From Lingula anatina (Eukaryota > Animalia > Brachiopoda): 64,000 bases of DNA. Below are positions 37,129 to 63,171 of this stretch, piece by piece. A program made the translations under genes and the position numbers. Each line of letters begins with the position of its first letter. Positions within the stretch are counted from its first letter, which is position 1. The DNA lies in NCBI GenBank assembly GCA_051362555.1, contig CM120645.1:2666001-2730000 (forward strand), in the 5' to 3' direction. The notes beneath the pieces were generated by a model, which saw only the letters and a program-made list of their open reading frames with translations, did no database searches and was not told the origin of the DNA.

Positions 37129-40100
37129 TTATTTGCGTCCAAAGGGGTTGAAACGCGTCTTCATCCTCCCAAGCCGAGCCAACCTTTCTCTAAGACGGTC
37201 CAAAAATTTTTCTGGCAGCCTGGGGACCGTTCTGGTGGGAATAATCTGTGTAGTTGTTGCAGGGACCGTATTCGGGCAGACGATTGTTTTCTGCCTGTAA
37301 GGAGCGAGGTTGACGCCATCGTACGTGGCCTCGGCTGGAATCACCTTAGTGGCTATCTCCGTCAGGATGTCCTCTCGGGTGCAATGTCCGCCTCCGCAGC
37401 CGTTTGCCGGGAACGAACCGTCATCTATTTTGCGGTTGATCAGTTCAAGCAGGTCATTGACGCCTTTGCCAAACTCTACAGCGATATCTATAAAGTTGGA
37501 GACCCTTGGGTCGAGGGACTTCACCTGGTTGCTAGTCATCCACGCGTCCAGTGCTTGGTCGCTTGCTATACTCCCGCTACGGATGCACTTCAGTGGATAA
37601 CCGGTGTAATCATCTATGTCGGGGAAAGCCTTGGCGATGAGGCGAAGCAGGTCGTATTTGTTGGCGAATGGTCTGGAAAGCGTGGTGGCAATCTCCATCA
37701 TCCTGGTGATGGACAGCTGGCTCCCCACCCAGGTCATGACCTGAGCCACCATCTCGGACTGGCGATACAGCTGGACCATCACGTACTTGGATGATGTGAG
37801 GTTATTCAAGAAGAACATCTGCGCATCCAAAATGGTCGTGTTGGTGATGGAGGCGTTCGGCCATGCCGAGACGTAGTTCTTGATTGGGTTAAGCGAGGCG
37901 GCTTCTCGTAAGAATATGCACAGTGTATCTTGACAGTTGGGGTCGGCGGCAATCCCGGTAGAGTCTTCGCTGGTATCGAACATGCTGACAATACCGTAGA
38001 AATTGTTTTTCACTAGACCAAAGAATTCCACTTCAAAGGCAGTTAGATTTTTCATTTCTTCCAGTTTCAAGTCCACCGCGGCTGAAGCGTTATTGATGCG
38101 CTCTTCGATTTCGTCGATTTGCTTATTGACGTTTATTGTGCTCATCACCGACATAAAGATGCATAAACCAACATTAAGTGCGGATCCAACATTACCCATG
38201 TTTAAAACCTTGCCGACTTTGACCTGAAAAAAGGAAAAAATACATTTCAAAAATACATTTGAAGTTTCATTTTACGCTAGCAAATACACTCGGAATGTTT
38301 TATTTACAGTTTATTCATATCTTTAAAAACAATGATAATGTTTACCTTTCTCCCTCTAAATGTGAATAGGTTTTTGTTTGAAAAGCTTCTCCAGCCGCTT
38401 TTCATTTTCTGCCAGCTGTACCACTTCACCTTTTTGGCGGGAGCTTTGAAGTCAAAATTCTTCAGGCCGTCAACATCGGCATTTGCACTACTAACTTTTT
38501 TGACATAAGCATCGAAGTCTGCGTTATTTAATCCCTTCGACTGCTTGATAAAATCACCTGCGTTAGAAAGGATAAAATGGCATAAGTGACTGGCAGAGCG
38601 ACCATATTTTTTCGTGTATTCAGAGACATATAAACACACTCGTTTTCTATGGTATTCTTTGTAATAAAGCCTTATAAGAGTTTACTGCATGAGTCTGGTA
38701 CATTATTCATATACGTTTGATGATAAGTTTAACGTCCAAGTCACTTAAAAGTTGGATACAAAACAAAACGATCTTTTTAATCAGTTGCATTTTTACGCTA
38801 GCTTGCTATTTTGATAAGTAACAACAGGATGCTCAAGGTTTTTATCCAAAACTCTTAAGTAAGGATTACGCCATCAATACGAACACACAAGACTACAAAA
38901 CGTTGACTTGTTATTTTGATAATTAACAACAGGATGCTCAAAGTTTTTATCCAAAACTGAATGTTTATGAACGAATAAAAGCATTGGGCATGCGTGCACT
39001 GGACTACGAGCCACATGGCAAGGGCATGTCTATGTCTGATCGGACAAAATAAATCAATAAACAAAAATAACAAAATCAACAAAGAAATTTATAAATTATA
39101 GAAGCAGAGGGATAGGTAAAAAAGAGATACTTCCCCAAACTCGAGACGATTTTTCGAAACTTTTACATAAAAACGAATTCTGTCCATTTCGACATAATAT
39201 TTCAGAGATGACGGGAGAAGCGATGGGAATGTGTACGAATATCAGTGGCCTCTACATCACTGTACAAATTGAACTACTCACCAAGTTTCCCTTTCTTTTG
39301 CAGGTCTGACAACAGGTCTGGGTTTGTTTGTTTCAGTCTGTTGTACGCCCGAACAGATGCTACGTCGCTTGGATCGAAGGAGCTTAAGGTTTGGCGCATC
39401 CATTTCGGTATGCTGGCGTCTACATTGTCGGCTTTGAACATCACTTTTGGGTCTTTGGTTTTGGCAGTGTTGACAAACTCATCGAATTTCTGGGGGCTCA
39501 AACCGTCCGTGGATCTGAGAAAAGCTGGAAGGTGGCCAGTCTTCTTCAACTTCTGTAGGTAATCTGGTTCCAGTCTCTGAAGGGTGGCTACTTGTTTGGC
39601 GCGCTTGAAGTCAACGGATTCCAAAAAGGAATTAGTTGCTGCTCTTTGTCCCGCTGGCATCATGAACTTCCAGAATTTCCCCACCTTTCCGTTACTGTCC
39701 ATTTTCGCATAGACTTTCAGCTTCCCAAGGTTTTTCGGGTTTTCCTGGACGATGAACATCTTCCCTTGCGGATTACTTGCAAGCTGGTATGAGCCTTGCT
39801 TCCCGTAGAATTCAACAACCTGGTAGTTCTGCGATCGGGACAGCAGCGCTGTTCTTGCCGAGGTCGTGATCAATCCGGTGTGCATGGCCACAAGAGGAAT
39901 GGCGGTCATCATTGCTAGATACACAAAATCTTTCCGTTTTAGAACGGCAATTTCATTTTGTATGCCGTCCAGGGTGCCCTGTATGCCATTCAAGTACTTT
40001 TCCAGGTTGACCCGGAACCGGATCTTCTGCTCGGTGACGGTGTCAAGGTCATCTGGAACATACACTGTACTGTTTTCCTCAACGGCGTCTAAGGTTCTCA

Positions 40101-40740
40101 GAATTTCCATCAGCCTAATGTTCGAGCTGGCAATTATTTCGAGTTCCTTGCCGATCAAGTAGAGGTTGGTCAAGGCCCTGTCGTTAGTGCTATTAAGCAC
40201 GCTCCAAGTGATCTCCTCATCGAGAGTTTGGTTGACCTTCAAAGCGATCTCGTTTCTTTTGTTGTCCATGTTATCTAGCCTAAAATAAACAGATGATTGT
40301 AGATAATAATAGATTGTAAGAAAAGATCTAGAGGGATGAAACGCCTTGTAGGGGAATCTAACTTAACTCGAGAAAATGAAGGTTTTTACAGTAGACGAAA
40401 AACGAGACTTTAACAAAATTAATAACAACAACAACAGCAACAACAACAATAATAATAATAATAATACCTTTGGCAGGTCCCAGGTGTCAAACTTCCACAT
40501 TGAAACGTCTGTGCTAAGTTTAGTCCGAGGCAAACAATGTCGTCCCAAAAATTGCTAAGCACAAACTTGAAAACCGCGCCAAGCGCTGAAATCAGAAAAA
40601 TATGGTTAAATAGAAGACTTAAATTAACTGCAGCTGCAATAGACGAACACCGGTAATGCCATTGTCGCAAGCTATGAGGCCACATATTATAAAGGTGATG
40701 TAATTTTCTCTATGAAATTTCTTGAAAGTTATATACATAT

Positions 40741-40771
<31 letters not shown>

Positions 40772-42318
40772 TTGCAACATGAAGGTTTTTGAAAGGAGCC
40801 ATGTTGTCTACATTGTATCTATGTCTTGTTACCTACCTCTCCTCTCTCTGTGATGTACTTTGGGTTCACCCTGCAGTTCAAAGCTGTCTGTTTTCGTTGG
40901 CTTGGCCACTGCCACTGCTTTAAAAGAACACAGCAAAAAAGAACACATCAGATTAAAATCAATTTTTATGATCGCGAGCAGAGATAAATTTTGTGATTAA
41001 TACAGAATAAACATTCAGGTGATTTTATGGATGAAGGTGCAAAATGTTGGCCGAAAAGGAAAGTTGAAAGTTTGCTGCATAATCCGCTAATAGACACTGA
41101 GTAGATTCTTCGCGGGGATAATGCGACAGCTTTCAAGTGGGTCGACCATATTTGATCCGCGGGTTCGTTTGTCGGAGGATCAGTTTGGGTTGTGAATACA
41201 GCCAAAGTGTCCTTGATATATTTTAATTTGGCATCAATGTATTGTAATTTCCCGGATATATGATTTTATTTTCTCTTCCATCCTTAAATTGGACCTTACA
41301 TTTCCTGTGTAATAACAGTGAACATGAACTATGCCGAGTGCCACTACAGTTTGTGGGTGTCGTAAATTTTAGTTAGCGCGCCCATTAAAATCGCAGACAA
41401 TATGTTGGATGAGCTATTTAAACTCTGCGCATGAAGTTGCATATAAATTCACTTATATATGATATGTGGTCCTTCAACAACAGCGCGTCAACCAGTATCC
41501 AGTATTTTGCCCAGGCGAGTGTTGGTGGTGGCGGGGGAAGGCTTCACAAGGATAAATGTGATAAGGTTTGCTTGCCATTATATTTCAGGCACAATAATAG
41601 AATTTCTGCTTTATCTGTGCGCGTTGTTTTGCTCATTGTACTATGTTTGGAGAGGAAGAAGTTATATCTTAGAATTAAAGGGAGGCATTTGCCGCTTGTC
41701 CACTTGCCCCCACCCCCACCCCACCCTGCCTTGGATACATCATGACAAGTATATGTTCCTTAGTATTAATAAGCAGAAGAAGGAGGAGAAAAAAGTGTTC
41801 TTTTCAATGGTCACAATACCTGATTGACAAATTTCAATATGTACAGCATTTTATATTTTGATACTTACCTCTTTTATTGTTATGGCGATTGTCGTTTGCT
41901 TCATTAAGAACTTTCCTCTCAGGTCGATGAACATGTGGAAAAACTGAAATACGTAAAAGATGATGTTATAAATATGTAAGAAGTTCGTTTTGCTTTGCAG
42001 CGTATTTGTTCATCGGAGAATGATATCGTATCATAATATTAACTATTTAACTCACCACATCTACCAGTGTCTTTTTAAATTAATGTTGGTATAACTTATT
42101 TTTAAATTTAATTTTTTTTTTTTTTTTTTGTATATATTTTTCTTATACCCCTTCCGATTGGTTTGTTATTTTTGGTAATAACCACTGTTTCTTACTGTTT
42201 TGTTGAACTACGGTTTAGTCTCTTGGATTGACTTGTTTTCCTCACCTGGATGAAATTGTTGTGACAGGAGACACAGAATCATGGACAGCCACCACTTCGT
42301 CTTCACCGCGCCAGCCAT
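37129..42318 (-). CDS. Paralogue A: uncharacterised secreted prepro-protein, about 883 aa; exons 42318-42246, 41943-41869, 40917-40837, 40585-40468, 40279-39282, 38557-38346, 38223-37129
   Basis: All six junctions are GT-AG and phase-compatible. Signal peptide MAGAVKTKWWLSMILCLLSQQFHP, then RERR|ALGAVFKFVLSNFW. Exon-by-exon homology with paralogue B. Confidence 0.85.
40421..40466. repeat. (AAC)n/(AAT)n microsatellite abutting a splice donor
   Basis: Seen directly in sequence. Confidence 0.9.
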
Positions 42319-42587
42319 TTTTACCTTCTTTTGAAATCTGAAACAAAAATTTGACTTATGAGTGTCATAGACAGAAAAAAAGACATCGCCATTTTTTTTA
42401 TATTTCATTGCTTGATTTAGGACGATCTTAGGCGGAAATGGTTATATTTTTATTAATATTCAGCGGTTGGGGCGAGACATCGTCTGCTCGTCACTGACTT
42501 TCACAGATATACAGCGAGGTTTCTCCTTAGCTTCCATCAGGTCAGAGATAGATGTTGCATTGGTATCAGTGCCATGTGGCTTTTTAC

Positions 42588-42794
42588 GGGGTACATTCCG
42601 AACAAGATGATTAGCGGACTAACAGATCTGCGTATCAGGTATGGCCGACCACATGAAAGCTTGCCGTATAATCCCCTAACAGACACTGGAAAGGTTCCCC
42701 GCGGGGGTTTACGCGGCAGGCAGTCAAGTGGATCGGCCATATTTGATCCTCGGATCTGTTAGTCCGCGGATCAACTTTGGTCGTGAATGCATCC
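42588..42794. mobile_element. Second copy of the Tourist-like palindromic MITE
   Basis: Shares ggccatatttgatcc...gtcc.cgga.caactttggt.gtgaatgca.cc with 1636-1695. Confidence 0.65.
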
Positions 42795-43033
42795 AAAGTC
42801 TGCATGGCGAGTCATTAAGTCGACATCGTCACGATAATAAATCAAGATTAAAAACCAATTTACGTACTCGACTTACTCAAACACATGAAATTATGTGCTT
42901 AGTTCATGGGTAAGTGCATTTAAAACATACATTAATGGGGTCAGATATCTTGACGAGTGTTACAAATCTAATTTTTTATTTTAGAGAAATGAAGGAGAAG
43001 TTTTAATGAGACTCTGGATTTTATTGTATTATA

Positions 43034-43073
<40 letters not shown>

Positions 43074-43765
43074 TTTTTTTTGGTCACTGTTTCTTGCTAT
43101 ATTAATTCTCAATAACCATTTTAGATTTAAAAGAAGAAATTTTCTGTCAAAGTTGGGGGATCTGGCAATAATCTGATTGCGTCCAATGAGACTTTCCGTA
43201 GAGCTAGTGAGCATTTGTTAGATCGACGTAATTAACTCCCTGTGAACGGTCCCTTTGACTCAATTTAAATTTACCAGTAAACGCATCTAAATGGCGTGAC
43301 ACTTCTTTTCATATTTTAAGTCAGCGCCTGTACTTGTATCGAGGGATATACAGGAGAGTCGCTGTCCGCCCACTACTTCTCTTCAACACGGATTTCCGTC
43401 TTCAAAAATATACATGTACACCTGGGGATAGCAGCCGTTCTTAACCACTGGAGAGTAATATCAGAGGCGATAATAATTATCTAGAGTTTAGGAAACATCA
43501 CTTTACACACAGGATAACTGTCCAGAGGATAAAAATTCCATACAATGGATAGTGTTATCCAGAAGGGGAGGGCTGTCCACTGTTCACTATCTAGGTCAAG
43601 ATATTAAACTGGGCCCAGGTCTTCTGAGCTATTTACATGTAACAATATCTGAAATACCTTTCATGCTATTTGAAGTCATTTGAAGGTATTTAATCTAAGA
43701 CAGTAATATAATGTAGATCAAATTATTTCGGTCGTGCCTGTCCGGTGAAATGAGAAATCGGTTTT

Positions 43766-43934
43766 CAGGCCCGTAGCCAGCAATTTCAAAAGGGGGGTTC
43801 TTTTTCTGAAAAAGTGGACCTTTTAACATAAACACTTCATGTACCTAGATCAAATTTTACCCAGAGTGGACCTTTTCCCAGCAAAAGGGGCGGTTCTTTC
43901 GAACCCCCCCGAACCCCCCCTGGCTACGGGTCTG
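43766..43934. mobile_element. 169-bp MITE, copy 2, 5-bp TSD GTTTT
   Basis: gtttt|CAGGCCCGTAGCCAG...CTGGCTACGGGTCTG|gtttt; reverse complement of 26328-26495. Confidence 0.88.
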
Positions 43935-43962
43935 GTTTTCATAGTAGAATTTTCTGTTCACG

Positions 43963-43998
<36 letters not shown>

Positions 43999-45117
43999 CG
44001 AACAGGCAAATGAACATTACGCATGCGAATATATGCAAACACGCGAACACTCACGGGAACTTTCATATGCATGTAGCAAACAAACCAATACACTTACAAT
44101 CAGAAACATACACAACCATTGGTTGTTCGTAACAAACCTTGTATTTCTACCCAAGGACCCGCCGATTCCTCGCTGCTCAATTTTGGAATTCTGTCGAGCC
44201 GGATCCACTGTACGTTGAATGCTGCTCCTAGTCAAATATCTGGATTGATTGCATTACAAATTTATATACGATGGGATTTGGAATTTTACTCATATCCTGG
44301 TTGCGGTAATTATTAGCATGAGCGTCAAATAACAGTAAATAATATAAACGGATGTGCGAAGCGCATGGTGTGGTTTTCTGACCATTAGTGGCACGCCTTC
44401 GATAACGGCAGAATAACAAGTGCTAAATATATATACGGAAATAGAGGAAGCGGAACAAGAAGAACTTGTTTTTGCTACAGAACTCTAGCCCAGAAACTGG
44501 TCTTAACTATTCGACCAGAGATTTGCTCTCTTCCGGCTCAAGATACATGTACGCCCATAGCAGTCCATTTAGATAAAATGCATGTACAGTTATTATTGGT
44601 CTGAGCATGGAAGTATATCTACACATGTACTTCCATGGTCTGATCATGAGATACTGTAAAAGCCATGTATATGTTTCTTGCTCTAAGCTTGGACGCATTG
44701 AACATTGCGTCCGAGCTCTAAATTCCGTTTAGCTTGACCGATGATGAATTTAATTGCGAAATTCGACCACTGCCCATTAAGCTTCTACCGGTGCTCTTGA
44801 TCCTTAGAAGTTACTCATTATGCACATTAAAAAAGTTAGGCGACCGTCCTTTCTGTTGTCACGCTATTTATGTGATGTTTGAATCCAGGTCAAAAGCTCA
44901 TGCAGATCAAAATTCACGAAACAACTCGATCAATAATAATATTAATAAGTCAAATGTTGGTTTAAACGAAGTATTAGGCCTATTTATTAAGTCAGAACGG
45001 AAAGTTTATTTGAAATAATCTATATTAATAACTTATTATTTGCCCAAAGTTGGTCTGATGATATTGTCTGATGGGTCAAACAATGGTTTTAAAATAAAAG
45101 AATAACTTTGACGTGAT

Positions 45118-45239: not shown

Positions 45240-46550
45240 GGCTTAAACCACGGCCTCTGATTGGCTACTACACTAGTAGTGCAACAGACCGTGGAACGCA
45301 CTCGTACATGACGTGCTTGTATGTCGAATCATAGAAGTAGAGAAAACATCTATGGTCGAATGTAGCACGGCCGAGTCTTTTCTTCTAACATGTGGACAGT
45401 AAACAGAAGTCGACTCAACCGTTACGGGACAGGCTTTTCTATTTCCGAAAAAGTCTGACCAGATGCACCGACGAAATGTTGTCCTTTTTCGTGCAGCGTG
45501 CAAAGATGATATAGGCCTATTATGTTGTGAAATGAGTTTCTGGCTGGTGCAGTAGTGACGTTAGGCCTACTGTTGACGTCACCGGAAGGTATTTTTAGGG
45601 CGCTACTCATAGCATTCGTGACAGGATTTATTAAACAAGGTAAAAGTCAAAGCCAAGGGGATTGAGTATAAAGTAATGAATTGCACATATAATAAATGGA
45701 AGGGGGCGAAACATTATTGTGACACCGGTACATGTAGGCCTATAGGACTATAATATATCAGGTATATTTTCTTCCTCTTTTTTGTTTGACGTATTTCATT
45801 TATCCAGCTCACTGCAATTTGCATACCGTAATACCCCATCTCAACCTGCTTTTTATTCGTTTCAAATTAAAATCTTTTGTCTGTCTGTCTGTCTGTCTGT
45901 TCACAACATTACCAAAAAAAGGTGCGGATACATTTAGATGGGTTGCTCAGAAATTGTCTGGTTGCGGACTAAGTAACAAACGATTAGATTTTAGGCGGTG
46001 ATCGAGTGATTAATAAAATCAGTCAATTATTCAAGTAAGTCTGTGTGTTAGGAACATTAAGCAAAAAAGTGACCTCGTTATAACTTATGGGTAGCAGCTC
46101 GATAGAGGGCGACAGGTGTCAAAAAAAAAAAAAAAAAAAAAAAAAAAAACACGCAACCCCATTAACTTTCCAGAGACCGCGATGGCGTCAATTCTATGCT
46201 CAAATTCCGTCAACACAACATGGCACAATCAACGAAATTCATTCAATTATCACCAAAAAGAGCCCTTACCCGTTGCAGAGCATGGGTTGTGTATCTCGTC
46301 GTCTGCATCAGCGTCTGGTTATATTAAGAATATATCAGGGTCTTTTGATACATTTAGGTAGACGGCGAGCGACACACGTGCAATTCTTGATTCAACTAAA
46401 CCTTGAAGCGTTCACAGGGGTATTGTTTGGGAAAAATTCGTGTCTTTTTCAACTTCCTAGACAAAAGGCAGATAACCATTATGCTATTTTTTAATGAATG
46501 CATAAATAAAATAAATAAATAAAAGCAACTCGGAGGCCATGGCAGTTAAA

Positions 46551-46860
46551 AGGGATAATTACTCTTCGTATGGGTCTATATTTCACAATAAAACATTGCG
46601 AACAACTCATAGAAATATAATATGTTCTGTTTTACCACAAAACAGCAGTTATAGCTATTATTCTGATATCTGGGCTTGTCTTTAGATCACGTGACCACCA
46701 TTGATGGCTATACTCTGTTATAATCTCTTAAGAGGTATTAAGAAATAAACAAACTTTTTAGAAAAACAAGGGACTAACTTTGAATGTAAAAATGGATTCA
46801 TTAACCATTGGTAAGTATGGGAAAATTCATTTTTGGCCAAAACGAAGAGTTATTATCTTT
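46551..46860. mobile_element. ~310-bp TTAA MITE, copy 2
   Basis: Colinear with 19490-19802; ttaa on both sides. Confidence 0.8.
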
Positions 46861-47282
46861 TTAAGATTTAAAACACTGGGATTAAAAAAAAAAAAGATGG
46901 TTCTTGGCTGTTTATTTGAAAATTCTTTGGTCTCATTATAGCTACATATTTTAATCGTGACAACAACTTTTACCTGATTTAAATTTTAAAAAGAACCAAC
47001 TGCAATATGGTTCAATAATCTTTTGAATGTAATTTACATTTTCATTGATAAATAACAACGTATTTTAAATAGTTGCAAAATCATTCAGAATGAGTTTTGT
47101 GTGTCGTTAAGTGTAGCGCCCTAGTACAACACGTACTTTGCAGCAAAAACGAGCAAATTTGAACAATCTGTATCAAATGCCTAAACCTCACCGCATAATG
47201 AACTTGACGTGTTTGTAATATGTAAGCTCTTTGTAAACAAATACGTAGGTCTAGTTCTAAAAGATGTTTGACATCTATCAAA

Positions 47283-50200
47283 TTATTTTCGACCCCAAGA
47301 AAAACTTGGGAACGTTGGAAGCCTTATATTTTTGAACATATCTCTTATGCGCTGCAGTAGCTCTTCGGATATTGTTGGACTTGGTGGCGTAGTGGTTGTA
47401 GTTGTAGTAGTGGTTTCCGCAGGGCAGGTGATCGTAACGACTCTGTAAAGAGCAAGATCGACGCCGTCGTACGTGTCGGCATTGGGAAGGACATTGACGG
47501 CGATTTCCTTAAGGACGTCTTCAATGGTGCATTCCCCGCCACCACAACCCGTTGGATACTTAGTGACCAACTTTCCAACAATTGCGCTAACAGATTGGTC
47601 AAAATCAACTCCAGATGAAATGTAGTCGGTGACGTCGGGGTCTATCGTCTTAACCTGGTTACTGGTCATCCACGTATCTAGCTCCGCTTCGCTTGTTATG
47701 CTTCCGCTGCGGATGCATTTCAGTGGATACCCAGTGTACTCGTCTCTATCGGGGAACGCCAGGGCAATGAGGCGGAGTAGGTCGTATTTGGAGTCGAATG
47801 GTTTGGAAAGCGTGACCGCGTTTGCCATCATCTGGTCAATGGATTCGTCGCTTTGGACCCAGATCATGACTTGTGCCACCATCTCGGCCACTCGGTATAG
47901 CTGGACCATTTGGTACTTGGATTCCGTGAGGTTACTCAGGAAGTAGGCCTGGGCGTGCAAAATGGTCTCGTTGGTGATGGAAGCGTTCGGCCAAGCGGCG
48001 ATGTAGTTCTTGATTGGGTTCAACTCGGCAGCGTCTCTTAAGAAAATGCAGAGGGAATCTTGGCAGTCCGGGTCGGCGGCGATTCCGGTGGAGTCCTCGC
48101 TCACATCAAACATGCTGACGATATCATAGAAGTTATTTTTCACTGTATCAAAGTAATTCTCTTCGTCGGTTATCAGGACTTCCAATTCGGCCATCTTTTC
48201 ATCGATCTCGTCGGAGGCTTTGTTGACCCGCCTTTCGATTTCTTCGACTTGTTCGTCCACTGTAATGCTGCTTTCTGCGGCAATGTATATGCACAGCCCG
48301 ACGTTGAGCAAAGAACCGATGTTGGCCATATTAACAAAGGTACTGACTTTGATCTGAAAGAAAAACATCCTCGTTTTAGTATGATTTAAAGAAAGTTTTG
48401 ACTTTTTAAACTTTTGAAATAGAAAAATTGATTAAAATGTATCCACATTTTTGGCATATATATCATAACTGAAAAAAATGTATGTCAAATATTTGATTAA
48501 AAAACCTGTGCGTATTAACAATAATAACATTTACTGGTTCTAGATAATTAATAATAATAATATGACCTTCCAAGAAATTACAATAATGATATATGCCACT
48601 ATATTCTAAAGACCGACGGGGGAGCAACCATTGGTTGTTAACCACGTGATTTAAAGCTTGAGTTTGTATCACTCATCTGCATTTAAACACGAAATGGTAT
48701 CAAAGAGAGTCGCCATTTTCTATCTTTTCACTCCGTGGGTGGGTGTGGATGGGTGGATGGGGGGGGGGGGCACACTGATCAGGGAATTAAGTAATTATTT
48801 AAAATTGTATTCATACGCGTAGGTGTGATACGGAAGTAGACTACGTCAGGCAGTTTTTTGTTATTATGCAATGGAGGGGCCTACTTCTTGCACTGTCATT
48901 GATCATGAACACGAAAGATTCCTTATTCAAAACCTTTGGGGCAATAGGAAGCTCTGATGTATATCTTTAAACTGCCGATACACTCATTCCTAGTAAGGTT
49001 AGCGAGAGCAATTACCTTCCTTCCTTGGAAATCAAACAGTTGTTTGTTCGCAATGGACGCCCAGCCAGACTTAATTTTCTCCCAGCTAAACGATTTTACA
49101 CTTTTGGCGGGTGCATCGAAGTCGAAATTCTTCAAGCCGTCAACTTCAAGGTTTGCTTGCTTGACTTTATTCATGTATTCGTTGAAATCGTCACCTACCA
49201 GACCTTTGGACTGCGAGATAAAGGCGCCTGCATCAGAAAGCAAACTGTTAATGCCAATGAGAGAGAGAGAGAGAGAGAGACTGACTTTGTTAGGCCCGAT
49301 GTAAAATATGATGTTTCGGTCAAATATTTTCGCGAGCTGTCCCATAAAGAAGTGAACAGTTAACGTCCAAGGGATTTTAAAAATTAAAGCAGAGGGCACG
49401 TTTCTTCAAATCTTGACGTTGTGGATTAGTTTTTCAGAACGACCAAATGTGATCCATTTATGAGCAAAATAAGCACCAAAAGAACCTTATTAATGGGATT
49501 CAGACCAAAAAATTTACAATAGACAGAGATTGCTTCTCAGAACAAATTCAAAGAAAAATTATGAAAACTGTCTCAGACGGATACAAATAAATAAACAAAG
49601 AAAAAAGAGAAAAATGCCATCTGTTTTTGAATGTGATAACATAACTCACCAAGTTTCCCTTTTTTCTCCAGATCTGCCAGTAGGTCTGGGCTAGCCGCTT
49701 TCAGCTTGTTGTACGCGTCCACAGCCGCTATATCACTTGGGTCGAAAATGCTTAATGTTTGACTCATCCATTTTGGCATGGTTGTGTCCGCAAACTCGGC
49801 GCTAAACATCACCTTCGGGTCTTTGGTTTTAGCGGTTTCGACAAACTCGTCAAACTGCTGTGTGGTCAGTCCGTCGGTTGATCGCAGAAAAGCCGGGAGA
49901 TGGCCCGTCGACTTCAGTTTCTGCAGGTAGTCAGGTTCCAGCCTCATCAAACTGGCTACTTGTTTAGCCCGATTGTAGTCAACGGATTCCAAAAAGGACT
50001 TCGTAGCCGCACTCTGGCCCGCTGGCATCATGAACTTCCAAAATGACCCAACCTTACCAGTTTCGCTGAGCTTGGCGTAGACTTTCAGTTTTCCTAGATT
50101 GCCTGGCTCCTGTTGGACGATGAACATTTTCCCATTTTTATCATACGCGAGTTGATACGAGCCTCTTGCCCCGACTAATTCTACGACTTGGTAATTCTGA

Positions 50201-52598
50201 GACTGGCTAAGCGCCCATGTTCTTGCCGTAGTCGTGATCAAACCTGTGTGCATAGCCAGGATGGGAATCAAGGTCATCATTGCAAGCATAGCAAAATCTT
50301 TCTTATAATAATCGGCGATTTCCGATTCCAGTTCCTCTGTCGTGGCCCTCATGCCGTTTATGAACTCTGTGAGGTTTGCCCTGAATCGTATCTGCTGCTC
50401 AACTACTTCGTCATTATTATCGGGAACGTATACCGTCTCATTCTCCTCGACGACGCTGATGGTTCGCAGAATCTCCATGAGCCGAATGTTCGAGCTTGCG
50501 ATGACTTCAAGCTCCTTGCTGATCTTGCTGATGTAATCAATGGCTTCGTCGTTGGTATAGTTTAGCACGGACCAGTAGACCTCGCGCTCTAATGTCGCGT
50601 TGACCTTGGCGGTGATCTGAGCTCTCTTGGCATCTAGCTCATCTAGCCTACGATAGATAAGTGTAAATTGTGAAAAAAAAACGAATATTCAGGAGATTTT
50701 TAAATGCAAGTTAATGTTCGTGAGATGTTCGCGCTATTGCTATTTCTAGAGAAAAATATTTTCACCATTTCACGAATCAATGCATGGTCCTGCACTCTAC
50801 TTCTGTACCGTCTAATTAAAGGGACGAGAATGAAAAATGAATGCTGGCTACATGTAGCTCAGAAGCTAATAAACCCGTGGTCTGCCAGCGGGTCCTGGTA
50901 GAACGTGAAAACACTCACTTACTTTTTACAGTTCCCGGGGGTGAGACTTCCACAGTCCAGCTGCTGCGCCAACAACATACCGGCACACGCGATATCGTCC
51001 CAAAAATTGGAGAGCACAAATTTAAAAACTCCGCCAATTCCTGAAATGTTGTAACACATGTAGTTATACATGACCTCTATAGCAATTTGACATAAGAATA
51101 TTATGTGCTATCTATAATAGATCCACGAAAGTTTACATTAATTAATTTCTATATGAGAGAGAGAGAGAGAGAGAGAGAGTAAATTGTGGTATTTTAACTC
51201 ACCTCTTTTCTGTCTGTGGTGAATTTGGGTATCTGAATGCTTCTCTGAGCTGCTGATCTCTGGGAAATGACGCGCAGCTGCTTAAAAAAGAAGAGTAAAA
51301 ATCACCCCACGTGAATATACAACTTTACGCAGAGACACATGCCTTTCTTTGGACAAAATATAAGTTACGGAATTTTTTTTCTTTAGTATCATGATTGGTA
51401 TTCTGTTTGTCTGTGTTTATTATCTCTCAGTTCCTGTTAGTAGATCACAACGACTTGCATTGAGAAATAATTACGTTGTAATTGAAATATTGGGAATTAT
51501 TTTACATTTCCACACCTCATAATGAGATTACAGTCAGAAACGATAAAGAATCATGAGTTTGGGCCTTATTTTAGCGTAGACCACTACTATTACTTTTTTG
51601 GCAGGCAGGTTTAGAAATATAATTTGCGACAGTTATAGCCGACAAGATGAACATAACCATAAATAAAAATTACTGTGACATTACAATACTATCCAAAAAG
51701 TAATTTAAAAAGAAATCGTCACTTTTCAGTTGGTTGCTTCGAATGGCACTCTGACACATTGATAGTTACATGTACCCCTTCTAACATGCAGAGATTGACC
51801 AGCACTATTCATCATTATGACGGCCGTATAATTTGGCCTGGGTCTAATTGTGCAGACAGTCTATTCACTTTTAACAGTTGGTCTAAAATAACCCTTGGCC
51901 TTTATATACGCCGGGGTTGAACCCCCATTAGAAAACACCGTATGTACGTGAATGGTTCACTTTTTGGTCGTTATTGGCGCATTGTCCTCAGTGACGTGTG
52001 ATAGTGGTAAATTATTGACAATAATGTGTTAAAATTTCGTGTACATTTATTCCACTGTTCTCCTCCCCCCTTCCTTCCTTCCCCCGTTATTGTGCCGTTT
52101 ACAGGTATTCAAAAATATAAATAAATAAATAAATAAATAAATAAAGGACCTTATTAATGACTCAAACAAAACGGATTCCAAAAATTCTTTTTCAGCGAAA
52201 ATGGAAAAGAAACTGTACCTCTTTTAATGATGCGATGATAGCCGTCTTTCTCTGTTAAAACTTTCTTCTCTGCCGGTAAGGAATGCGCAATGGCTGAAAC
52301 CAAAACATTAATGTGATCTTTTATATCTACCAGGTCACTCCTTGTCCCCATTTGTAACATTTTTCAAGGTTGTTGCTAGTTACAATTATTCGACTTTATT
52401 TAATTTCAACATTCCTTTAAATATTCTGTTAAGGACGGGTTCTCCTGTCAGTTTTCACGCACTGTATAAAAAATGATAAAAAAAGACAAGAGGGAAAGAA
52501 AGTTTGGGTTCCTCACCTGGATAAAATTGCTGTGTCACCAAACATATCACCATAGACAGCCACCATTTCTTTTTCAAAGCGTCGCCTCGCCCGGCCAT
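47283..52598 (-). CDS. Paralogue B: uncharacterised secreted prepro-protein, about 877 aa; exons 52598-52517, 52293-52219, 51280-51203, 51040-50923, 50647-49650, 49227-49016, 48353-47283
   Basis: Same intron phases as paralogue A, and identical lengths for exons 2, 4, 5 and 6 (75, 118, 998, 212 nt). RQKR|GIGGVFKFVLSNFW; ends WGRK-stop. Confidence 0.85.
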
Positions 52599-55500: not shown

Positions 55501-58500
55501 AATGTATCTTTTTTAAAAATATTTTAGTTAAAAAAAAATACCCAAAAGCGTCGGTTTCAACAGAAGCGGCGAAGATTGTTAAACAAATTTGACGGTCGTC
55601 CGTTCATTGTCAACATTTGCTTGTCTCTATATCCCCTAATCCCAATCTTATTGTTTTTGCACCGACTCTATATCATTTTCAGTTTGCGTCGCAATTATAA
55701 CAATAAAATAGATGTTAAATCGAATGAAACAAAGGGACGAAATTATAATGATCATGTTTAAACAAAAGGGTCGCTAGTTTTTGTCAACCGGATCTTAATT
55801 TTACTGTTTATGCAACGATTCAAATTCAATTTTTAATCGACATTTACACGTATTATAGTCTTGGTTATTACGTATGATATACTGTAAAGGAATTAAGATA
55901 AAACTATTATCATAATTTTAGTTTGCTGATTCATGTTACAATTGCATTTTTGCACAGACGGTCGAACATTTCATATCTTTTTAGGGAGCTTTGTGTGTTA
56001 AAAGGGCTCTTCCCGCTCGGTGCATTTATTCAACACCTTGCAATTGCAACAGGAGGCAATTATGTTGTTAACTTGACAGTAAAAATCTTCCATGCTTTTG
56101 GCTACTGCCCACATGATTCCAATTATAGTTATTTCAGATATTTTTTCTAACCATTTGTATGTGTTTTTTTATTTCAGTCACGAAAAGCATTACGGTGCTT
56201 AAAAATGAATGACATTGCTGCGAGGCCCACACCGCTTTGTAATTGTAGAGAGAGAGAGAGAGAGAGAGAGACAAAGAGAGAGATTGTCTTGAGCAGAAGT
56301 CAACGTTAAAAAAGGTTTAATAGTCCTATTCTCGTCGCCTTCTTATAAATGTGTGAAAATTTCAATCTTTAGTCGTTGAAATCTTAACTATCGCCTGTAT
56401 GTTTTATTTCTTTTTTTGTCTGTGTGTGTGTTGAGAAATAAACTTTTTGTTTCCAAAGAAGTTTCACCATAGTTGTAGATGTTCAAGATTGTCTGTTAAT
56501 CTTTCTATTTTTTCATTTTGTCATGGTTTCGTGGTTTCACAACTCTAAAATTATACAGTAGTTATTTCAGATAAGATACAGTTATCATTTTTCGCCTTTT
56601 GTTCGTTCTTTTGTATTTTTCCAGACACGATATCATGCCAATGCGTCACAGTAGACACTATTGCTTCAAGGTATATATGTCTCCTTGACAAAGTTATGAG
56701 TGATGGGATATAGGTAGAAAAAAATAAATAAGAATATTGTGAAAAAATCAAAGTCAAAATAGTGAGTTTAGTTTTCATTTATTTATTTATTTAATCATTG
56801 AGATTTGTACATGTCCAGGATTGCATATTTTCGAGTCTTTCTCCGTGGTCAATTATAGTTAATCGCATTCCTCAGAAGATACAGTAATTCTTTCAAAATA
56901 TTTAGATGCTTTTGTAGTTTTGTCACTCAAAAAATTGACATAATTGCTGAAGGGCCCAGACCTCCTTGTCAATGTGATGAGAGAGGGTTTCAAAAAAGAA
57001 AAAAAAAAGATAGAAAGCAAAACGAGATTGTGAATAAATCAACGTCAAGAGAATCACCAGGCCTTTCCTGCCACTGTCAAATAATAATGTTTGAATCATT
57101 AAATGCCAGTTTTTGTGGGGAAATCACAGCTAAATTGTCTCTTAAATGTTGCCTTTATGTTTTTATTTATTTATTTATTTATTTATTTTTAGAAGTAAAT
57201 TTTGAGTAAATTAGTCTTACCAAATTTATATATTTTCAAGATTGTATTAACATATCTAGATTTCAAATATGTCCGTACCTTCGTGTTTTCAAGAACTTTG
57301 CATATATACCTACAGTACTGAAATTACATTGCTATCATGGCGTCGACATAAATGGCTTTTCTTCGCACGCCTTGAATAGCGTCCTGAAATACAAACCTCC
57401 AGCTTCAATTTGTGGTTGTTTACAGTATGGCGTATGTGTTTAAAGTTAATCTCTGATGGTCATGTTGTAATCCCTTTATCCCAGAGGGGTCATCCGTGTC
57501 CGGACTGCCGCCATCTTGACCACAGATGAGGAGTCGCAAGCACAGCAGCAAGACCAGTGACGACGTCATATTTTGCGGCTTATTTTGGCAAGCATATTAC
57601 TGACGTCAAGACTATATGCTGGTTATATGATAATTGGATAAAGTTACAGTGCAAGCAAGTTATGGCCTCAAACTGTACAGCACGGTAAATTTTAAGTTAT
57701 CCTATTGGGGATGTTCCCGCCAATTTTGATTTTCCTCGAAACAAGGCAACGTTCTGTTTCTGTTTATAAAAGCAACAAAACAAAACAAAACAAAATAAAT
57801 AAATAAAGAAGGATCGAGCTATTGTGTAGATCCAAATGATTCCGTGCTTTGGAAAGACAGGGAATCAAAAGTGTAATTGTAGGCCCTATTTATCTGTAGT
57901 CAACCTGGGACGGATTCTCGTCCAAAAGTCAACGCACCGGTAGTTCTTTATTCATACATGTGACGTCAAAAACTCCGGTCAGGTCACTGACCTACGCACT
58001 CCACTTTGCTGGACCATAATGATCTAAGTCATGCAATATATGACAATTTATGAAAAATATGTAATGTATCTTCTTGGTTAAAGCAGCTAAAGGAGATTAA
58101 GGCACTATATGCTGCATTTCATTTATGTTTTCATAACCAGATTAGTAACCATTACTAAAATGGGCGTAAGCTAACATTAAGTTTCCGTTAAAACCAGCCA
58201 TATCATGGAGGGGTGCGGGTTGATGAGTGCTACCTGTATTCTCGGGAAGTGTTTTATCTTATATTTATCTGCCTATCCCCGTTAACATTGAAGAATATAT
58301 ATTCATATAGATAGGGAAAACATTTACCGATTCACTTCCAGTTTCTGGTACTTTTCCGGATTCAGTCTAACACTACCAGGTGCGTGGTGCGGACATTTAA
58401 AGATTAAAAGTAAAATGGAAACCAATTTAAATCTGAAGGGCAGACCAAAATCAAATTTAAAGCAAAACTAAAAAAAGGATATAAATAGTGATTTTATTGT

Positions 58501-61469
58501 ATACTAATAAAATTATACCCGTCTTCGAAGATCGATCTGCACGAGCATTAAGTTTTTGTGATGCTTGAATAAGTATGTCAAAATTCTGAACTATGTTCAT
58601 ATCTTGAAATTGACCAGTAATGACATAACAGCAGCCATGAGTATCGACTGCTACCGACTGCAACGCCGCCCTGGTGGCAGAAATATAGTATAAATAACCA
58701 GAACCACGCCCGAGGAGTCCATTTGGGTCAGGTGCACTGAAGACCACACGGTGGGTTTTTAGATATTTTTTTTTTACTTTTCCCTTTCATAGCAAGCAAT
58801 GCTATTCGTCTCGATTGCTGCAAACCAACTTTTAGTGACCCTATTGCTTCTGCTTGGAAAGAAATTGAGATAACATATTTCAATAATTTTGAAAGGTTAC
58901 AAATTTTAAACAAAGCAATATCTGGAAAATATCATAAAATGAAAAAAAAAAAAGATGAATTAAGAAGGTGGAATTTTGAGGCAACTGCATTTACTAAATA
59001 TTTCTAAAACAAAGCGTTTTGTATTAAAGATTCAAGATTGAGGTTGCTTATCCCTTTTAGTAGCGGAAATGTAGGGCGTGGTCCTCGTGTGTGAACACAT
59101 TTTGCGAGCTTGGAAATAAGTTCTCAGCACAGCAGCAGTGTAATATCACTTGTCCTCTCCTAAGCACATGGTCAAATCCGATTTATTTCTTGAGAAGTCT
59201 TGTTGTCGCTAGTCGCCTTGTCTAAGCTGTTTGCAAACCTACTGTCTTACAGTGTATGACAGAATTTTAAATATACAGTGGCCGCTATCAAACTGCTTTA
59301 CTGGGTGTCTGGAATAACTAGGTACTTTTTTCATGTTTAAAAAGTTTCATCAGTTTTTGTGGATGATAGAAAAATTAGTCTTATCACAAACTGCAAAATT
59401 ACTCACATGAGAACTTTCGATACTTTTTAAATTCAACACACATTTATAAATATGTACATGTATATTAAAACACGATATTATTAACTGTGGAATGTACATT
59501 CAAAATGAAATAAATCGTAAATATTCAAGTAAATTAAATTCCTTGAACAATGTCAGCCTAACAGAGGCTTTCCATTTAACGGACAAAATCTGGAATCCTG
59601 GTGACTCCTCGCCTGGCGGATAGTTAGTGGTATTTATAGCATTCACGTCATTGAGTGTAGGTTTCGCATAAATTACAGGTTGTAAATTTGAACAACACGC
59701 AGTGCGTGTATCCGTAGTCAATTTTTCTTTTTTTCTATAGCGCGGGTGAGTGACGCCAACAAAAGGTACACGAACCCTTAGAAATCGTAGTATTTATGGT
59801 CAACGTAGCCTTCACCACATTACATAAATAGTAACAAGGCGTGTGACACATATACAACTGTATAATTTGTATACCTGTGAGGGCCATCTCCGCATTTTTC
59901 TGGATGTAAACAGGAGCTTATACATCCCGTAGCACCCTGAGTATGGCGCGATTCACTATGGCCCTTCCTGTATACGATACTGGTCATCATGATTGGTCAG
60001 TAGAATCCCCCAAGATCAAGAAATACCTGTAATATTGCATTTATTTATTTATTTATTTGTTTGTTTGTTATATACTGCATTGACACAATTGAAAACATTC
60101 CTAACACTTACCCAGTAAAACAAATACTTTCTGATATTTACATCCAGTATTATTTATGGCCATAACGTCTAAAACTTATTTAAAAAAAGACTTTGCCTAT
60201 ACACCAGTTCTAACATTCGTGACGTCAGACTAATAGCTGTGAAACAAACAGGGTGCCGGGCAAGGAGTGTTAATAATAGGCGACATATATGCTAAGAAAT
60301 AAAGGCCCTGATGGAGTGTTCAAATATGTGAGTATAATCACTAGATTTCAGTTTGTACAATGTATATCGATTATCAAGAATGAGAAAAAAATACTGTTCT
60401 AATTATTTATACTGTTTTCTGTTTAATCACATATATTGTCTTTTAAGTAACAAAATATGAGCAGATAGTTTTCAAAAACTATTTGCAAGAAGTTGAAAGT
60501 CTGAAAGTATGTCCATAATTTACATTACATAACACATAGAGGCACCCAGGTTTGCTTTTAAGGATAATAGATCAGTTGGTTAAAAGAAAATCTTCCTTTT
60601 CGTAATAAAGGTACTGCCACCCCCTATAATACCAGGCACTGTGTAATACGTCGGAGTGGTCATTATCTTCCACCAAAGACCATTCACTTGCATCGGTCCT
60701 GCTCCGTAGCAGTTACGACCATGTGTGTTGAAAAATACATGCGCCATGACGTGTCCGCAGCAGGTGGTCATGTTTAAATCAATCTTTGACCTAACCGAAA
60801 TGGCTGTTATTTGACCAATTTTTATTTATCTTATTTACAACAATAGTAAGACTGTTTCAGGAGCCACACGTACATTGTACTAAATGCGGTGCAGGGGCTG
60901 ACCGTTTAGAGCATCGTGTGAGCGGGACCTCCCTCGCCCACATACCCGTCAGCGTGACTTCCGTTTCTTAAAATAAGACATTATTTCTTCTCTAAATGTC
61001 TCTCTTTAAATACAGCGCAGGGAGGCAACTAGCCGGACCTACGACCAGGAAAAACAACAGACAGCAAAGTGTAACGGGAGGGCGAGGACGAAGAAACGAG
61101 TGGGTATCTAGAAAACGTGGGGTATGCCAATCACTATTTCTATTTAACAGATTTATTGTATATGGATGGATTAAAATTTTGCTGCGATTTGATTAAAATA
61201 ACGTACATGTTATATCGCTTATATCCATCTTACAGAAAGGATTACAAGTTTATAATCGGAAGATAATCTTTTCATATCTTTTGTACGAAATTCAGTAATT
61301 TCATGGAGTGAGTTCGAAAAGAAATGTTTAAATTTTCAAGTAATTCTAAGTAAGTTCTGCTGCATTTTTTTACTATTTTGCTTAATAATTTCGATGTGTC
61401 TATTAATTAATTAATTAATTAATTAACTTTTTTATTTACATCATTTCAGATTCGCAGGACTCCACGAAA

Positions 61470-63171
61470 ATGGCGCTCTTCGGCGATAAGGCCAAGAAAA
61501 GATGGTGGCTGTTGATGATCGTCTGCTTAACATCGCAGCAGTTCTACCCAGGTAATAAAAACGAGTTTAAGCATTACACACGTGACTAGTGATACACATT
61601 TACATGTTTTAAACATTACATTTATATCGTAAATCTTGATATGTAGAACTGGGTGTGAACATAGTGGTCAGCGATGATAAACCGAAACATGGCGTTCATG
61701 CGCTCTCATAAATCAAAACCCCTGCCTTTTACAGGAGAAAGGATCACATCATTTCTCTTTCAACTGAGCTTACACTTCTACACGTCTGTTGAAGTATTTT
61801 CATTTTTGTTTTCATGTCCTCTAGGCATTTTATGCAGTAACTGATGTTTAAGTTGTCTTTTTATGAAGTAGTTTTCCGGTACGTAAACGCAAACTACCTA
61901 CCATGTCAACGAGCACAGAAAGTAACAGGTCGCGAGTCAGTAATTTTCCGTAGGGACTGACAAAATGATTCTACCTTCCAGACTTAAATATATTGACCAA
62001 AGAATTTTCGCAAGCCTACATTTGCAGAAACGCCCCCTTTTTTCGTAACTGTAAGTGTACATGTCCAGGCAATTACGGTTTAGCGATTTTGCAGAAAGTT
62101 ACCTTTTTATTGTTTTGGCTTATTCCCACTGAAACTATCATTCTACGTAGATCGATCCAACTCCGCTAAATCTCTCGCTGAATGTAATTAGTTTGACAGG
62201 GCTCCGTAACTCGAAAGCATCGCGTTTCGCGAATAGCGATATCACATAGAGACTACAGTATTATTATTTATTATTAAAACCACCTTAAAAGTATATTGCA
62301 TGGGGCGAGTATAGGCGAGTTATGGAATCGAGACGCTTGCGTTCGGTCGCAATGCGCGATGCTTTCGAGTTACGGGGCCCAGATTAAATCGCTCGTTTTC
62401 CTTATGTTGCATTTTTTGCAGTTCCTATAAAGTGTGCTCTTACCAAACAACAAATTATGATCATGTGTATCATTTTGTATACAGAATGTGAACTACGGGT
62501 TTTTCCTACAAATAGATGTCCGAGGTAGAGAGAATGTTCGCTGTTCCTCTTTAATTAAAATTGTACAATATATTATTGAAATAAATATTGCGTTGTTATT
62601 TACAGTTATTTCCCATGCTAATCAGCTGGAGAGAAAAACTATAGAGAAAAAGGCAGTGCATTCTGAGGACAAAAGGGGTAAGGTCATTGCCGTTTAACAT
62701 TAAATCAGTTTTTATTTCATTCCCCGACCAAAAAGGATGGTTTCTTCAGCGTTGGTTTGTCTGTTTGCTAGTGGACACGATATCCCAAAATGCTCTTCGA
62801 GATGATAAAATTTTCGAGTTAACCCATTATTCCGATAATAATTTCAACTGCATCTGGGTCTCTTTATATGTTAAACAGTTTTTGCCTAATTCCTTGGCGG
62901 AGGTCTGCGCTCTCCGAGTGCTCAATAGATTTAACACATTGAAATCTGTCTCATCTTGTTTCGTACCTTTGTGATTTTCTTTGTAATGTCTGATAATTCG
63001 TTGTTATTGCTATTTTCTGATTGCATAAACTGGAACATTAAATAATTATTGGTAACAATAATAATGGTTAATTATTTGCAGAGGCAGAATCTGCCGACGA
63101 ACGCTTGGAAAAATCGGACACAGCAGTTGTCCTTCGTTCTGATACGAAAATTCTTCACAGGCAAAAAAGAG
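61470..63171 (+). CDS. Paralogue C, 5' part (exons 61470-61551, 62606-62677, 63082-63171); presumably continues past the window
   Basis: MALFGDKAKKRWWLLMIVCLTSQQFYP|VISHANQLERK...EDKR|EAESADER...SDTKILHRQKR, homologous to exons 1-3 of A and B, all phase 1. Confidence 0.82.
62200..62379. mobile_element. Harbinger-like MITE, ~30-bp TIR, CAG target duplication, in paralogue C intron 1
   Basis: cag|GGCTCCGTAACTCGAAAGCATCGCG ... CGCGATGCTTTCGAGTTACGGGGCC|cag. Confidence 0.8.

What the first reader, a model, noticed from the sequence alone, without database searches (positions are those of the whole stretch)
37129..63171. Three-gene cluster of unrecognised ~880-aa secreted, furin-activated, putatively membrane-active proteins
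Seen in A and B (C only up to the furin site): signal peptide, two propeptide exons, R-x-K/R-R site, amphipathic N-terminus, long heptad-like helices, hydrophobic segment 1 (FVYLAMMTAIPLVAMHTGLI), a conserved basic insert (KFWKFMMPAGQ...), hydrophobic segment 2 (NVGSALNVGLCIFMSVMS) followed by another helix, then a Cys-containing C-terminal region. I recognise no family. Inferred: the helix-hydrophobic-insert-hydrophobic-helix layout with proteolytic activation resembles alpha pore-forming toxins (ClyA/Hbl/Nhe, ApoL-like) or class I fusogens. Clustered paralogues could act as a multicomponent defence, immune or gamete-interaction system.
Basis: partly seen in the sequence, partly recalled or inferred. 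Interest (0 to 1): 0.88.

Follow-up and report, generated by a model that had tools for sequence, protein, structure and literature searches.

The report
Brachiopod secreted pore-former-like protein family
A lamp shell (Lingula) carries three neighbouring copies of a gene for a large protein with no match to any known family, which is likely exported, likely switched on by a protease cut, and possibly inserts into cell membranes the way some bacterial pore-forming toxins do.

Summary
The window is Lingula anatina DNA. Genes A (883 aa) and B (877 aa) are intact seven-exon minus-strand genes, spliced as predicted in RNA reads. C lies on the plus strand, is cut by the window end and has a full-length database allele. 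A fourth paralogue lies elsewhere.

The family is wider than Lingula: a profile search found 14 remote relatives, one from a copepod and the rest unnamed. They share a Cys-knotted C-terminal domain. The full-length ones also share two marginally hydrophobic segments around an insert of about 20, 206, 275 or 547 residues.

No family library or fold search gave a significant match; the only leads are weak local hits to AhlC and NheC. New details: a C-terminal amidation signal on A, B and C, an inferred disulfide between the N-terminal amphipathic helix and hydrophobic segment 2, and a basic insert free of Cys and sequons in Lingula.

Best reading (0.45): a secreted, proteolytically matured protein that inserts a helical hairpin into membranes, like an alpha pore-former, but not shown to be ClyA-family. 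Furin activation is not family-wide; fusogen and multicomponent readings are unsupported.

The parts
44138..44138 (-). Gene A: 3' boundary of an upstream non-coding exon (intron 42338-44137)
   Evidence: 30 spliced reads in run X7, CT..AC ends
42246..42318 (-). Gene A exon 1: putative signal peptide
   Evidence: signal judged by eye
41869..41943 (-). Gene A exon 2: propeptide 1, ends in KR
40837..40917 (-). Gene A exon 3: propeptide 2, ends in furin-type RERR (40838-40849); tandem NAGNAG acceptor (RefSeq X1 and X2 differ by one Ala)
40468..40585 (-). Gene A exon 4: amphipathic N-terminal helix a0 and the C-x10-C-x7-C motif
39282..40279 (-). Gene A exon 5: heptad helices a1-a3, hydrophobic segment H1 (39868-39924) behind a KRKD ring, first two thirds of the insert (beta-meander and two helical repeats)
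38346..38557 (-). Gene A exon 6: end of the insert, basic and Trp-rich
37129..38223 (-). Gene A exon 7: H2 with conserved Cys (38134-38190), long helix a4, Cys-knotted C-terminal domain (about 37276-37665), Thr/Pro linker, cationic amphipathic tail helix and terminal F-G-R-K amidation-type signal (37132-37143)
52517..52598 (-). Gene B exon 1 (putative signal peptide; missing from the RefSeq model LOC106169812)
52219..52293 (-). Gene B exon 2 (propeptide 1, KR)
51203..51280 (-). Gene B exon 3 (propeptide 2, RQKR); both NAGNAG acceptors (51277 and 51280) are used in reads
50923..51040 (-). Gene B exon 4 (a0 and Cys motif)
49650..50647 (-). Gene B exon 5 (a1-a3, H1, insert)
49016..49227 (-). Gene B exon 6 (end of insert)
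47283..48353 (-). Gene B exon 7 (H2, a4, C-terminal domain, tail ending W-G-R-K)
61470..61551 (+). Gene C exon 1 (putative signal peptide)
62606..62677 (+). Gene C exon 2 (propeptide 1, KR)
63082..63171 (+). Gene C exon 3 (propeptide 2, RQKR); the gene continues beyond the window

Best explanation
These are three transcribed or database-supported paralogous genes of an unnamed protein family in the brachiopod Lingula, whose products are likely secreted, likely matured by cleavage at basic sites, and predicted to insert a pair of hydrophobic helices into a target membrane as alpha-helical pore-forming proteins do. Proposed steps. (1) Shown in the sequence: signal-like N-terminus, two propeptide exons ending in KR and R-x-K/R-R, and a C-terminal aromatic-Gly-Arg-Lys. 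(2) Inferred: the protein passes through regulated secretory granules, where the propeptide is removed and the C-terminus amidated. (3) Predicted at low to moderate confidence: helices before the insert pack with the long helix after it into a three-helix stalk, which puts the freed amphipathic helix a0 and H2 at the same end. (4) Inferred from Cys parity: a disulfide ties a0 to H2. (5) Inferred by analogy with AhlB: on a membrane, a0 anchors first and H1 and H2 insert as a hairpin; oligomers would then permeabilise the bilayer. The basic insert is either a shield or binding module on the near side, or it ends up on the far side. The target and the role (defence, digestion, gametes) are untested; antimicrobial or anti-predator defence is my guess.
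For: Real, spliced, stop-free genes. Family-wide layout: the N-terminal region scores above all 201 shuffled or reversed controls in 4 of 7 remote relatives, and the C-terminal domain in 7 of 7; profile-profile probability 99.3 between Lingula and the short forms. An amphipathic helix precedes the Cys motif (hydrophobic moment 0.52-0.66). H1 and H2 are marginal: KD19 1.45-1.85 in Lingula against 1.63-2.93 for the 7 helices of a GPCR in the same window; P0027 has no peak of 1.2 or more at either place. That fits facultative insertion better than fixed anchors. In P0020 the two segments are about 20 residues apart, a plain hairpin. Cys residues are gained or lost in pairs across 18 rows (two are fragments of other rows); the left-over pair C94 and C539 occurs together in 7 of the 8 rows that cover both places. 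The helix-KRKD-H1 stretch aligns to the a3, lysine ring and membrane-inserting head of AhlC (E 0.37-0.82; head described in PMC6602965 passages). A, B and C all end in a cationic amphipathic helix (rank 1-6 of about 870-1110 windows) and G-R-K.
Against: No significant match to any pore-former: Foldseek gave 0 hits at E<=0.001 in 3 searches, and the best VIA-align rows are generic three-helix bundles (Z 11.5, rmsd 1.7, 96 aligned; Z 11.8, rmsd 2.0, 98 aligned). The AhlC and NheC sequence hits are not significant and fall on different, non-collinear segments; myosin VI and chemoreceptors score as well or better, so they may be coiled-coil noise. The models are weak (pLDDT 59.7, pTM 0.30; 72.6, 0.53) and weakest at a0, H1 and H2. 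A 200-550 residue domain between the hairpin helices is not a feature of the ClyA-family structures as described in the passages read or as I recall them, and it raises a topological problem. P0020 lacks a0 and the first Cys. No activity data exist.
Confidence: 0.45

Rival explanations
1. A soluble secreted helical protein with no membrane insertion (lipid carrier, adhesive, matrix or storage protein); H1 and H2 are simply core helices of a bundle.
For: Fold searches return only generic bundles. H1 and H2 are only moderately hydrophobic and carry charged residues in some relatives. Propeptides and amidation signals are common on secreted proteins of many kinds (own knowledge).
Against: An amphipathic helix is exposed exactly at the cleavage site or behind the signal peptide in distant relatives. 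H2 is rich in Gly, Ala and Ser, and H1 and H2 form an adjacent pair in P0020. None of the 14 homology-free shell matrix proteins reported for Lingula is of this size (103-253 aa; PMC4595640 Supplementary Table 26; compared by length only).
Confidence: 0.25
2. A constitutive two-pass membrane protein (receptor, channel or adhesion molecule) with both ends outside the cell and the insert as a cytosolic loop.
For: In 4 of 4 Lingula paralogues the insert has no Cys and no N-glycosylation sequon and is net basic (+7 to +28), while the flanks hold 4-8 sequons and all the Cys; basic residues precede H2. This is the pattern such a topology predicts.
Against: H1 and H2 are at or below the weakest GPCR helix in Lingula and fall under KD19 1.2 in P0027. 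The inferred C94-C539 bond needs mid-H2 to be oxidised in the lumen. A cytosolic loop should carry sequons at chance rate (1.5-2.3 expected per paralogue) rather than none, though the numbers are small and P0027 and P0010 have 2 each.
Confidence: 0.15
3. A class I-like cell-cell fusogen: furin site, fusion peptide, heptad repeats.
For: R-x-K/R-R is followed directly by a Gly-containing hydrophobic helix and heptad helices in A, B and C. The gp41 core appears among the helical-bundle matches (Z 9.4, rmsd 2.8, 114 aligned, rank 7, tied with unrelated bundles).
Against: There is no C-terminal transmembrane anchor and no viral structural match at E<=0.001. No relative was found in viral contigs in 3 scans (word-based, close relatives only). 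The furin site is absent in the fourth paralogue and the copepod protein.
Confidence: 0.07
4. A, B and C are non-equivalent subunits of one obligate multicomponent pore, as in tripartite bacterial toxins.
For: Three clustered genes. Unequal read depth (A above B above C in run X7) would be compatible with unequal stoichiometry.
Against: They are recent paralogues (63-64% identity; the four Lingula proteins form one group, support 86/96) with H1 and H2 of the same size, and the ratio of A to B differs between runs (about 5:1 in X7, about 1:1 in X4).
Confidence: 0.08

Closest known systems
[quoted passage not shown]
   Same: Long heptad helix, then a lysine ring, then a hydrophobic head, then a return helix; an amphipathic N-terminal helix; a soluble precursor (PMC6602965 passages). 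Weak local sequence similarity to the AhlC head (E 0.37-0.82) and to NheC (E 0.0017, cut-off 420 bits, score 17.6).
   Different: A 200-550 residue insert between the hydrophobic helices, a eukaryotic prepro-sequence, disulfides, glycosylation sequons, an extra Cys-knotted C-terminal domain and an amidation-type tail. No ClyA-family chain is among the listed structural matches (inconclusive).
Type III translocators (SipB/IpaB) and the Tc toxin A channel hairpin
   Same: Three-helix stalk or long hairpin with hydrophobic segments. SipB 82-226 matched at Z 8.4, rmsd 3.0, 117 aligned (rank 35); TcdA1 at Foldseek E 0.07.
   Different: The scores are at the level of unrelated helical bundles, and there is no sequence similarity, injection apparatus or shell domains.
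Class I viral fusion proteins (features recalled, not fetched)
   Same: Furin-type site followed by a hydrophobic Gly-containing segment and heptad repeats.
   Different: No C-terminal membrane anchor, two internal hydrophobic segments, and the furin site is not conserved across the family.
Prepro-processed animal cytolytic peptides and proteins (melittin, actinoporins; recalled)
   Same: Signal peptide, propeptide ending at basic residues, amphipathic membrane-active N-terminal helix; C-terminal amidation in peptides.
   Different: About 800 residues and mostly helical; no Pfam match to those families.
Bacterial dynamin-like helical domain and SMCO3 (DUF4533)
   Same: Nearest by language-model features (0.76-0.78): long helices with a hydrophobic hairpin.
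   Different: The scores are below the tool's noise level (0.9), and there is no GTPase domain.

Membership tests
ClyA family alpha pore-forming toxins | Sequence match to a family profile | tested here: not met
   No Pfam toxin family at E<=0.05 for 17 proteins. The NheC model gave 17.6 bits against a cut-off of 420 on 1 of 10 proteins. The PDB sequence hit to AhlC is E 0.37-0.82.
ClyA family alpha pore-forming toxins | Elongated four- or five-helix bundle fold with a head domain | tested here: inconclusive
   Low-confidence models; no family member among the listed rows; best matches are generic three-helix bundles.
ClyA family alpha pore-forming toxins | Hydrophobic segments at the end of a3 and the start of a4, bounded by basic residues | tested here: met
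   H1 follows a heptad helix and KRKD, and H2 leads into a long helix. They are adjacent only in the short form P0020 and 275 residues apart in Lingula.
ClyA family alpha pore-forming toxins | Oligomerisation into a pore and lytic activity | not testable with these tools
   Needs protein and membrane assays.
Class I fusogens | Protease site directly before a hydrophobic N-terminal segment | tested here: met
   RERR or RQKR before a0 in A, B and C; not in the fourth paralogue or the copepod protein.
Class I fusogens | C-terminal transmembrane anchor | tested here: not met
   No KD19 peak of 1.2 or more after H2 in A, the B allele or the C allele.
Class I fusogens | Trimer-of-hairpins | tested here: inconclusive
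   Monomer models cannot show it; the viral structure library gave no match at E<=0.001.
Apolipoprotein L family | Match to the ApoL profile | tested here: not met
   No such Pfam hit at E<=0.05 among 17 proteins or at E<=0.5 among the exon pieces.
Tripartite (A/B/C) toxin system | Three divergent, functionally distinct subunits acting together | tested here: inconclusive
   The three genes are clustered but are close paralogues with like hydrophobic segments; interaction untested.

The most novel reading that the evidence does not exclude
An unrecognised animal and plankton family of single-chain 'loop-cargo' translocators: after proteolytic activation, a disulfide-tied helical hairpin inserts into a target membrane and carries the lineage-variable, basic, largely unglycosylated insert (about 20 to 550 residues) to the far side. 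It would be an alpha pore-former scaffold with a payload in the hairpin loop, evolved in animals.
Probability: 0.13. Interest if true: 0.9.

Novelty: new variant of a known kind. Interest (0 to 1): 0.6.

Why it matters
As I recall the field, animal pore-forming effectors mostly come from a few known folds (MACPF, aerolysin, actinoporin, gasdermin, ApoL). A secreted, prepro-processed alpha-helical family shared by a brachiopod, a copepod and unnamed marine sequences, with no Pfam or PDB match, would add a new scaffold. The variable domain between its two hydrophobic helices poses a clear, testable topological question: does it cross the membrane? Even if membrane activity fails, this is an uncatalogued family with a Cys-knotted C-terminal domain that no library searched here names.

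Tried and rejected
Artefact or pseudogene: rejected. The frames are open, RefSeq models exist, spliced reads were found, and among the listed read differences 10 of 19 codons in A and 19 of 32 in B are synonymous (a biased, best-supported subset).

Lingula-only orphan: rejected.

Family libraries: Pfam, NCBIfam and PHROGs gave no hit above any curated cut-off. PDB sequence searches with single proteins and three profiles gave only coiled-coil-type hits.

Fold searches: no ClyA-family chain was listed in any of the seven. The insert and the C-terminal domain were never folded alone, so their folds are barely tested.

Homotrimer prediction of the short form P0018 (22-330): no verdict, score 0.00, own fold uncertain; no evidence either way.

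Viral, metagenome and prokaryote origin: no locus in 3 viral, 2 metagenome and 2 genome scans. These are word-based and reach close relatives only, so horizontal origin is not excluded. A word-index search with the wide alignment found only 2 of its own members.

Swapped enzyme payload: not supported. The insert repeat is shared weakly with P0027 and P0010; the copepod insert does not score. The second internal repeat that I saw by eye in the C-terminal domain beat all 500 shuffles in only 2 of 5 proteins.

No RNA holder was indexed; raw-read runs were laid instead. A second language-model look-up did not complete.

Literature: LOC106169807 is in 0 papers. Searches showed no paper on this family (listings only). 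Earlier scan notes: nothing.
Full report
Source and gene models. Exon 5 of gene A matches XP_013404879 (LOC106169807) of the brachiopod Lingula anatina. No whole genome is held for the window. Exon tables give A 883 aa and B 877 aa, seven coding exons each, all GT-AG, with the same intron phases and no internal stop; A and B share 548 of 872 aligned residues. C has three exons on the plus strand (61470-63171), divergent from B, and runs off the window. Its RefSeq model (LOC106169782, 566 aa) ends after exon 6, but an 893-aa allele lies on another scaffold, with a locus number next to that of an allele of B. A fourth paralogue (817 aa, 43-45% identical) is on a third scaffold. The window differs from RefSeq at 1 of 883 residues (A) and 4 of 778 (B), so it is probably another haplotype or assembly.

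Expression. Six coded RNA runs were laid in two calls (X4 and X7 in both). Joints shown confirm 5 of 6 coding introns of A, a 5' UTR intron, and 6 of 6 introns of B; the stranded run X4 fits a minus-strand transcript. Depth over the last exon of A was about 45-51 in X7, 5-7 in X4 and 0-0.7 in X1 and X2. Over the last exon of B it was about 7-13 in X7 and X8, 3-10 in X4 and 1-2 in X5. C exon 1 had 0-0.44, with no joint shown. Tissues are unknown, and X7 and X8 reads are mostly 90-95% alike, so divergent reads may be lost and these ratios are rough.

Family. A profile of three paralogues over 1.84 billion representatives gave 17 hits: 3 Lingula and 14 remote (E 3e-25 to 2e-4), all with their best stretch in the C-terminal half. 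Of the 10 looked up, 1 is named, a 1099-aa protein of the copepod Neocalanus flemingeri; the other 9 are unnamed. Region profiles tested against 201 shuffled or reversed controls per protein show the C-terminal domain in 7 of 7 relatives, the N-terminal region in 4 of 7 (two of the other three are fragments; P0020 did not score), H2 plus a4 in 3 of 7, and the insert repeat in 2 of 7. HHalign links the Lingula and short-form C-terminal domains at probability 99.3. The four Lingula proteins group together (86/96, 15 rows; 3 of 18 rows left out as short or duplicate). The insert is 275-276 aa in Lingula, 206 in three unnamed forms and 547 in the copepod, and about 20 between the two hydropathy peaks of P0020. 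In Lingula it holds a twofold helical repeat that beats all 500 shuffles in 3 of 3 paralogues tested.

Anatomy. Exons 2 and 3 each end at a basic site (KR, then R-x-K/R-R), so the mature chain would start with an amphipathic helix a0. The fourth paralogue has only KR and the copepod protein has no propeptide, so furin is not a family trait. H1 and H2 reach KD19 1.45-1.85 in Lingula, against 1.63-2.93 for the seven helices of a GPCR in the same window; in P0027 neither reaches 1.2. In numbering of P0001, C731 and C834 are in 18 of 18 rows, C794 and C799 together in 11 and both absent in 7, C615 and C620 together in 4, and C105 and C113 in 9 of 9 rows that cover them. C94 and C539 (inside H2) are together in 7 of 8 rows covering both; P0020 lacks the first and has an extra Cys near the second. 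I infer an a0-H2 disulfide by elimination. The Lingula insert has no Cys and no sequon in 4 of 4 paralogues (1.5-2.3 expected each) and is basic. P0027 and P0010 have 2 sequons each, and the copepod protein is poor in sequons throughout, so this is suggestive only. A, B and C end in a Thr/Pro linker, a cationic amphipathic helix and aromatic-Gly-Arg-Lys(-Arg-Arg). From my own knowledge this is the amidation signal of regulated secretory products; a PHM-type enzyme is listed for Lingula (PMC4595640 Supplementary Table 25). The fourth paralogue and the remote relatives lack this tail.

Structure. AlphaFold2 with 18 rows gave pLDDT 59.7 and pTM 0.30 for A, and 72.6 and 0.53 for the short form P0018. 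Both are mostly helical; a0, H1 and H2 are the least confident parts of A. Foldseek found nothing at E<=0.001 in PDB (two models) or in viral structures. VIA-align's best rows are generic three-helix bundles: Z 11.5, rmsd 1.7, 96 aligned over 112-578 for A, and Z 11.8, rmsd 2.0, 98 aligned over 31-226 for P0018. The second looks add BAR, tektin and ALIX-type bundles. The range for A implies that helices before the insert pack with the helix after it. In an up-down-up bundle this would place a0 and H2 at one end, in line with the inferred disulfide; I could not inspect coordinates. No ClyA-family chain was listed, which is inconclusive with such models.

Leads to known pore-formers. The a3-KRKD-H1 stretch aligns to AhlC 107-186 (E 0.37-0.82), the region whose lysines bound the membrane-inserting head; AhlB spans the bilayer with the end of a3 and the start of a4 (PMC6602965, passages). 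NheC scores E 0.0017 on a different segment of C. Unrelated coiled coils score as well, so these are leads only.

Mechanism and odds. Shown: genes, splicing, motifs, family, variable insert. Inferred: secretion, cleavage, amidation, disulfide, stalk. Untested: membrane insertion, oligomer, target. I put a facultative membrane-inserting, pore-former-like protein at 0.45, a soluble non-membrane protein at 0.25, a two-pass membrane protein with a cytosolic loop at 0.15, an obligate three-subunit pore at 0.08 and a class I fusogen at 0.07. If both helices span the bilayer, the insert must cross it; that gives the novel case (0.13).

Literature. Seen: PMC4595640 (abstract, passages, supplement passages and part 9 of 24) and PMC6602965 (passages). 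None of the 14 homology-free Lingula shell proteins is longer than 253 aa. LOC106169807 occurs in 0 papers, and six further searches listed nothing on this family by title or abstract start. Subscription journals and bioRxiv supplements were not searchable and could hold expression or proteomic data on these genes.

Verdict. A real, expressed, uncatalogued family with a suggestive membrane-active anatomy but no structural or functional proof. Interest 0.6.

Noticed in passing
window 26067-32718 (+): Multi-exon gene with a signal-like start, Cys-rich EGF/furin-like exons and a C-terminal double hydrophobic stretch; looks like a CRELD-family gene (name recalled, not tested).
   Followed up: partly
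window 26754-28572: Intronic minisatellite, 90-bp unit, 20 copies, 97% matches, inside that gene.
   Followed up: no
window 3263-5188 (-): Ankyrin-repeat protein with a SOCS box.
   Followed up: partly
window 5578-6636 (-): Single-exon rhodopsin-family GPCR (7tm_1); used as hydropathy control.
   Followed up: partly
window 8784-16867 (+): CFA20-domain gene with long low-complexity downstream exons.
   Followed up: no
window 20420-21394 (-): 325-codon open frame with no Pfam match.
   Followed up: no
window 40917-40920 and 51277-51280: Tandem NAGNAG acceptors at exon 3 of both A and B; both B forms are seen in reads, and the two RefSeq isoforms of A differ by one Ala.
   Followed up: yes
window 43308-44375, 46512-47045, 62160-62390: Short repeats with very high read depth and strand-switching joints, probably transcribed inverted-repeat elements between and inside the genes.
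   Followed up: no
window 63495-63790: Duplicated segment of about 60 bp in intron 3 of C, each copy with an AG...GT-bounded stretch of about 38 nt, plus a 39-bp tandem pair; not used in the RefSeq model of C.
   Followed up: no
database protein P0005 (LOC106161015): The 1128-aa allele of B carries an exact internal duplication of its N-terminal half, probably an assembly or gene-model artefact.
   Followed up: no
window 581-1219 (+): Open frame with an SPRH tetrapeptide repeat (12-bp unit, 9.5 copies); no Pfam match.
   Followed up: no
window 52600-61470: The RefSeq model of B lacks exons 1-3 and the start of exon 4, which reads show are spliced in; B and C face away from each other across about 8.9 kb.
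   Followed up: yes
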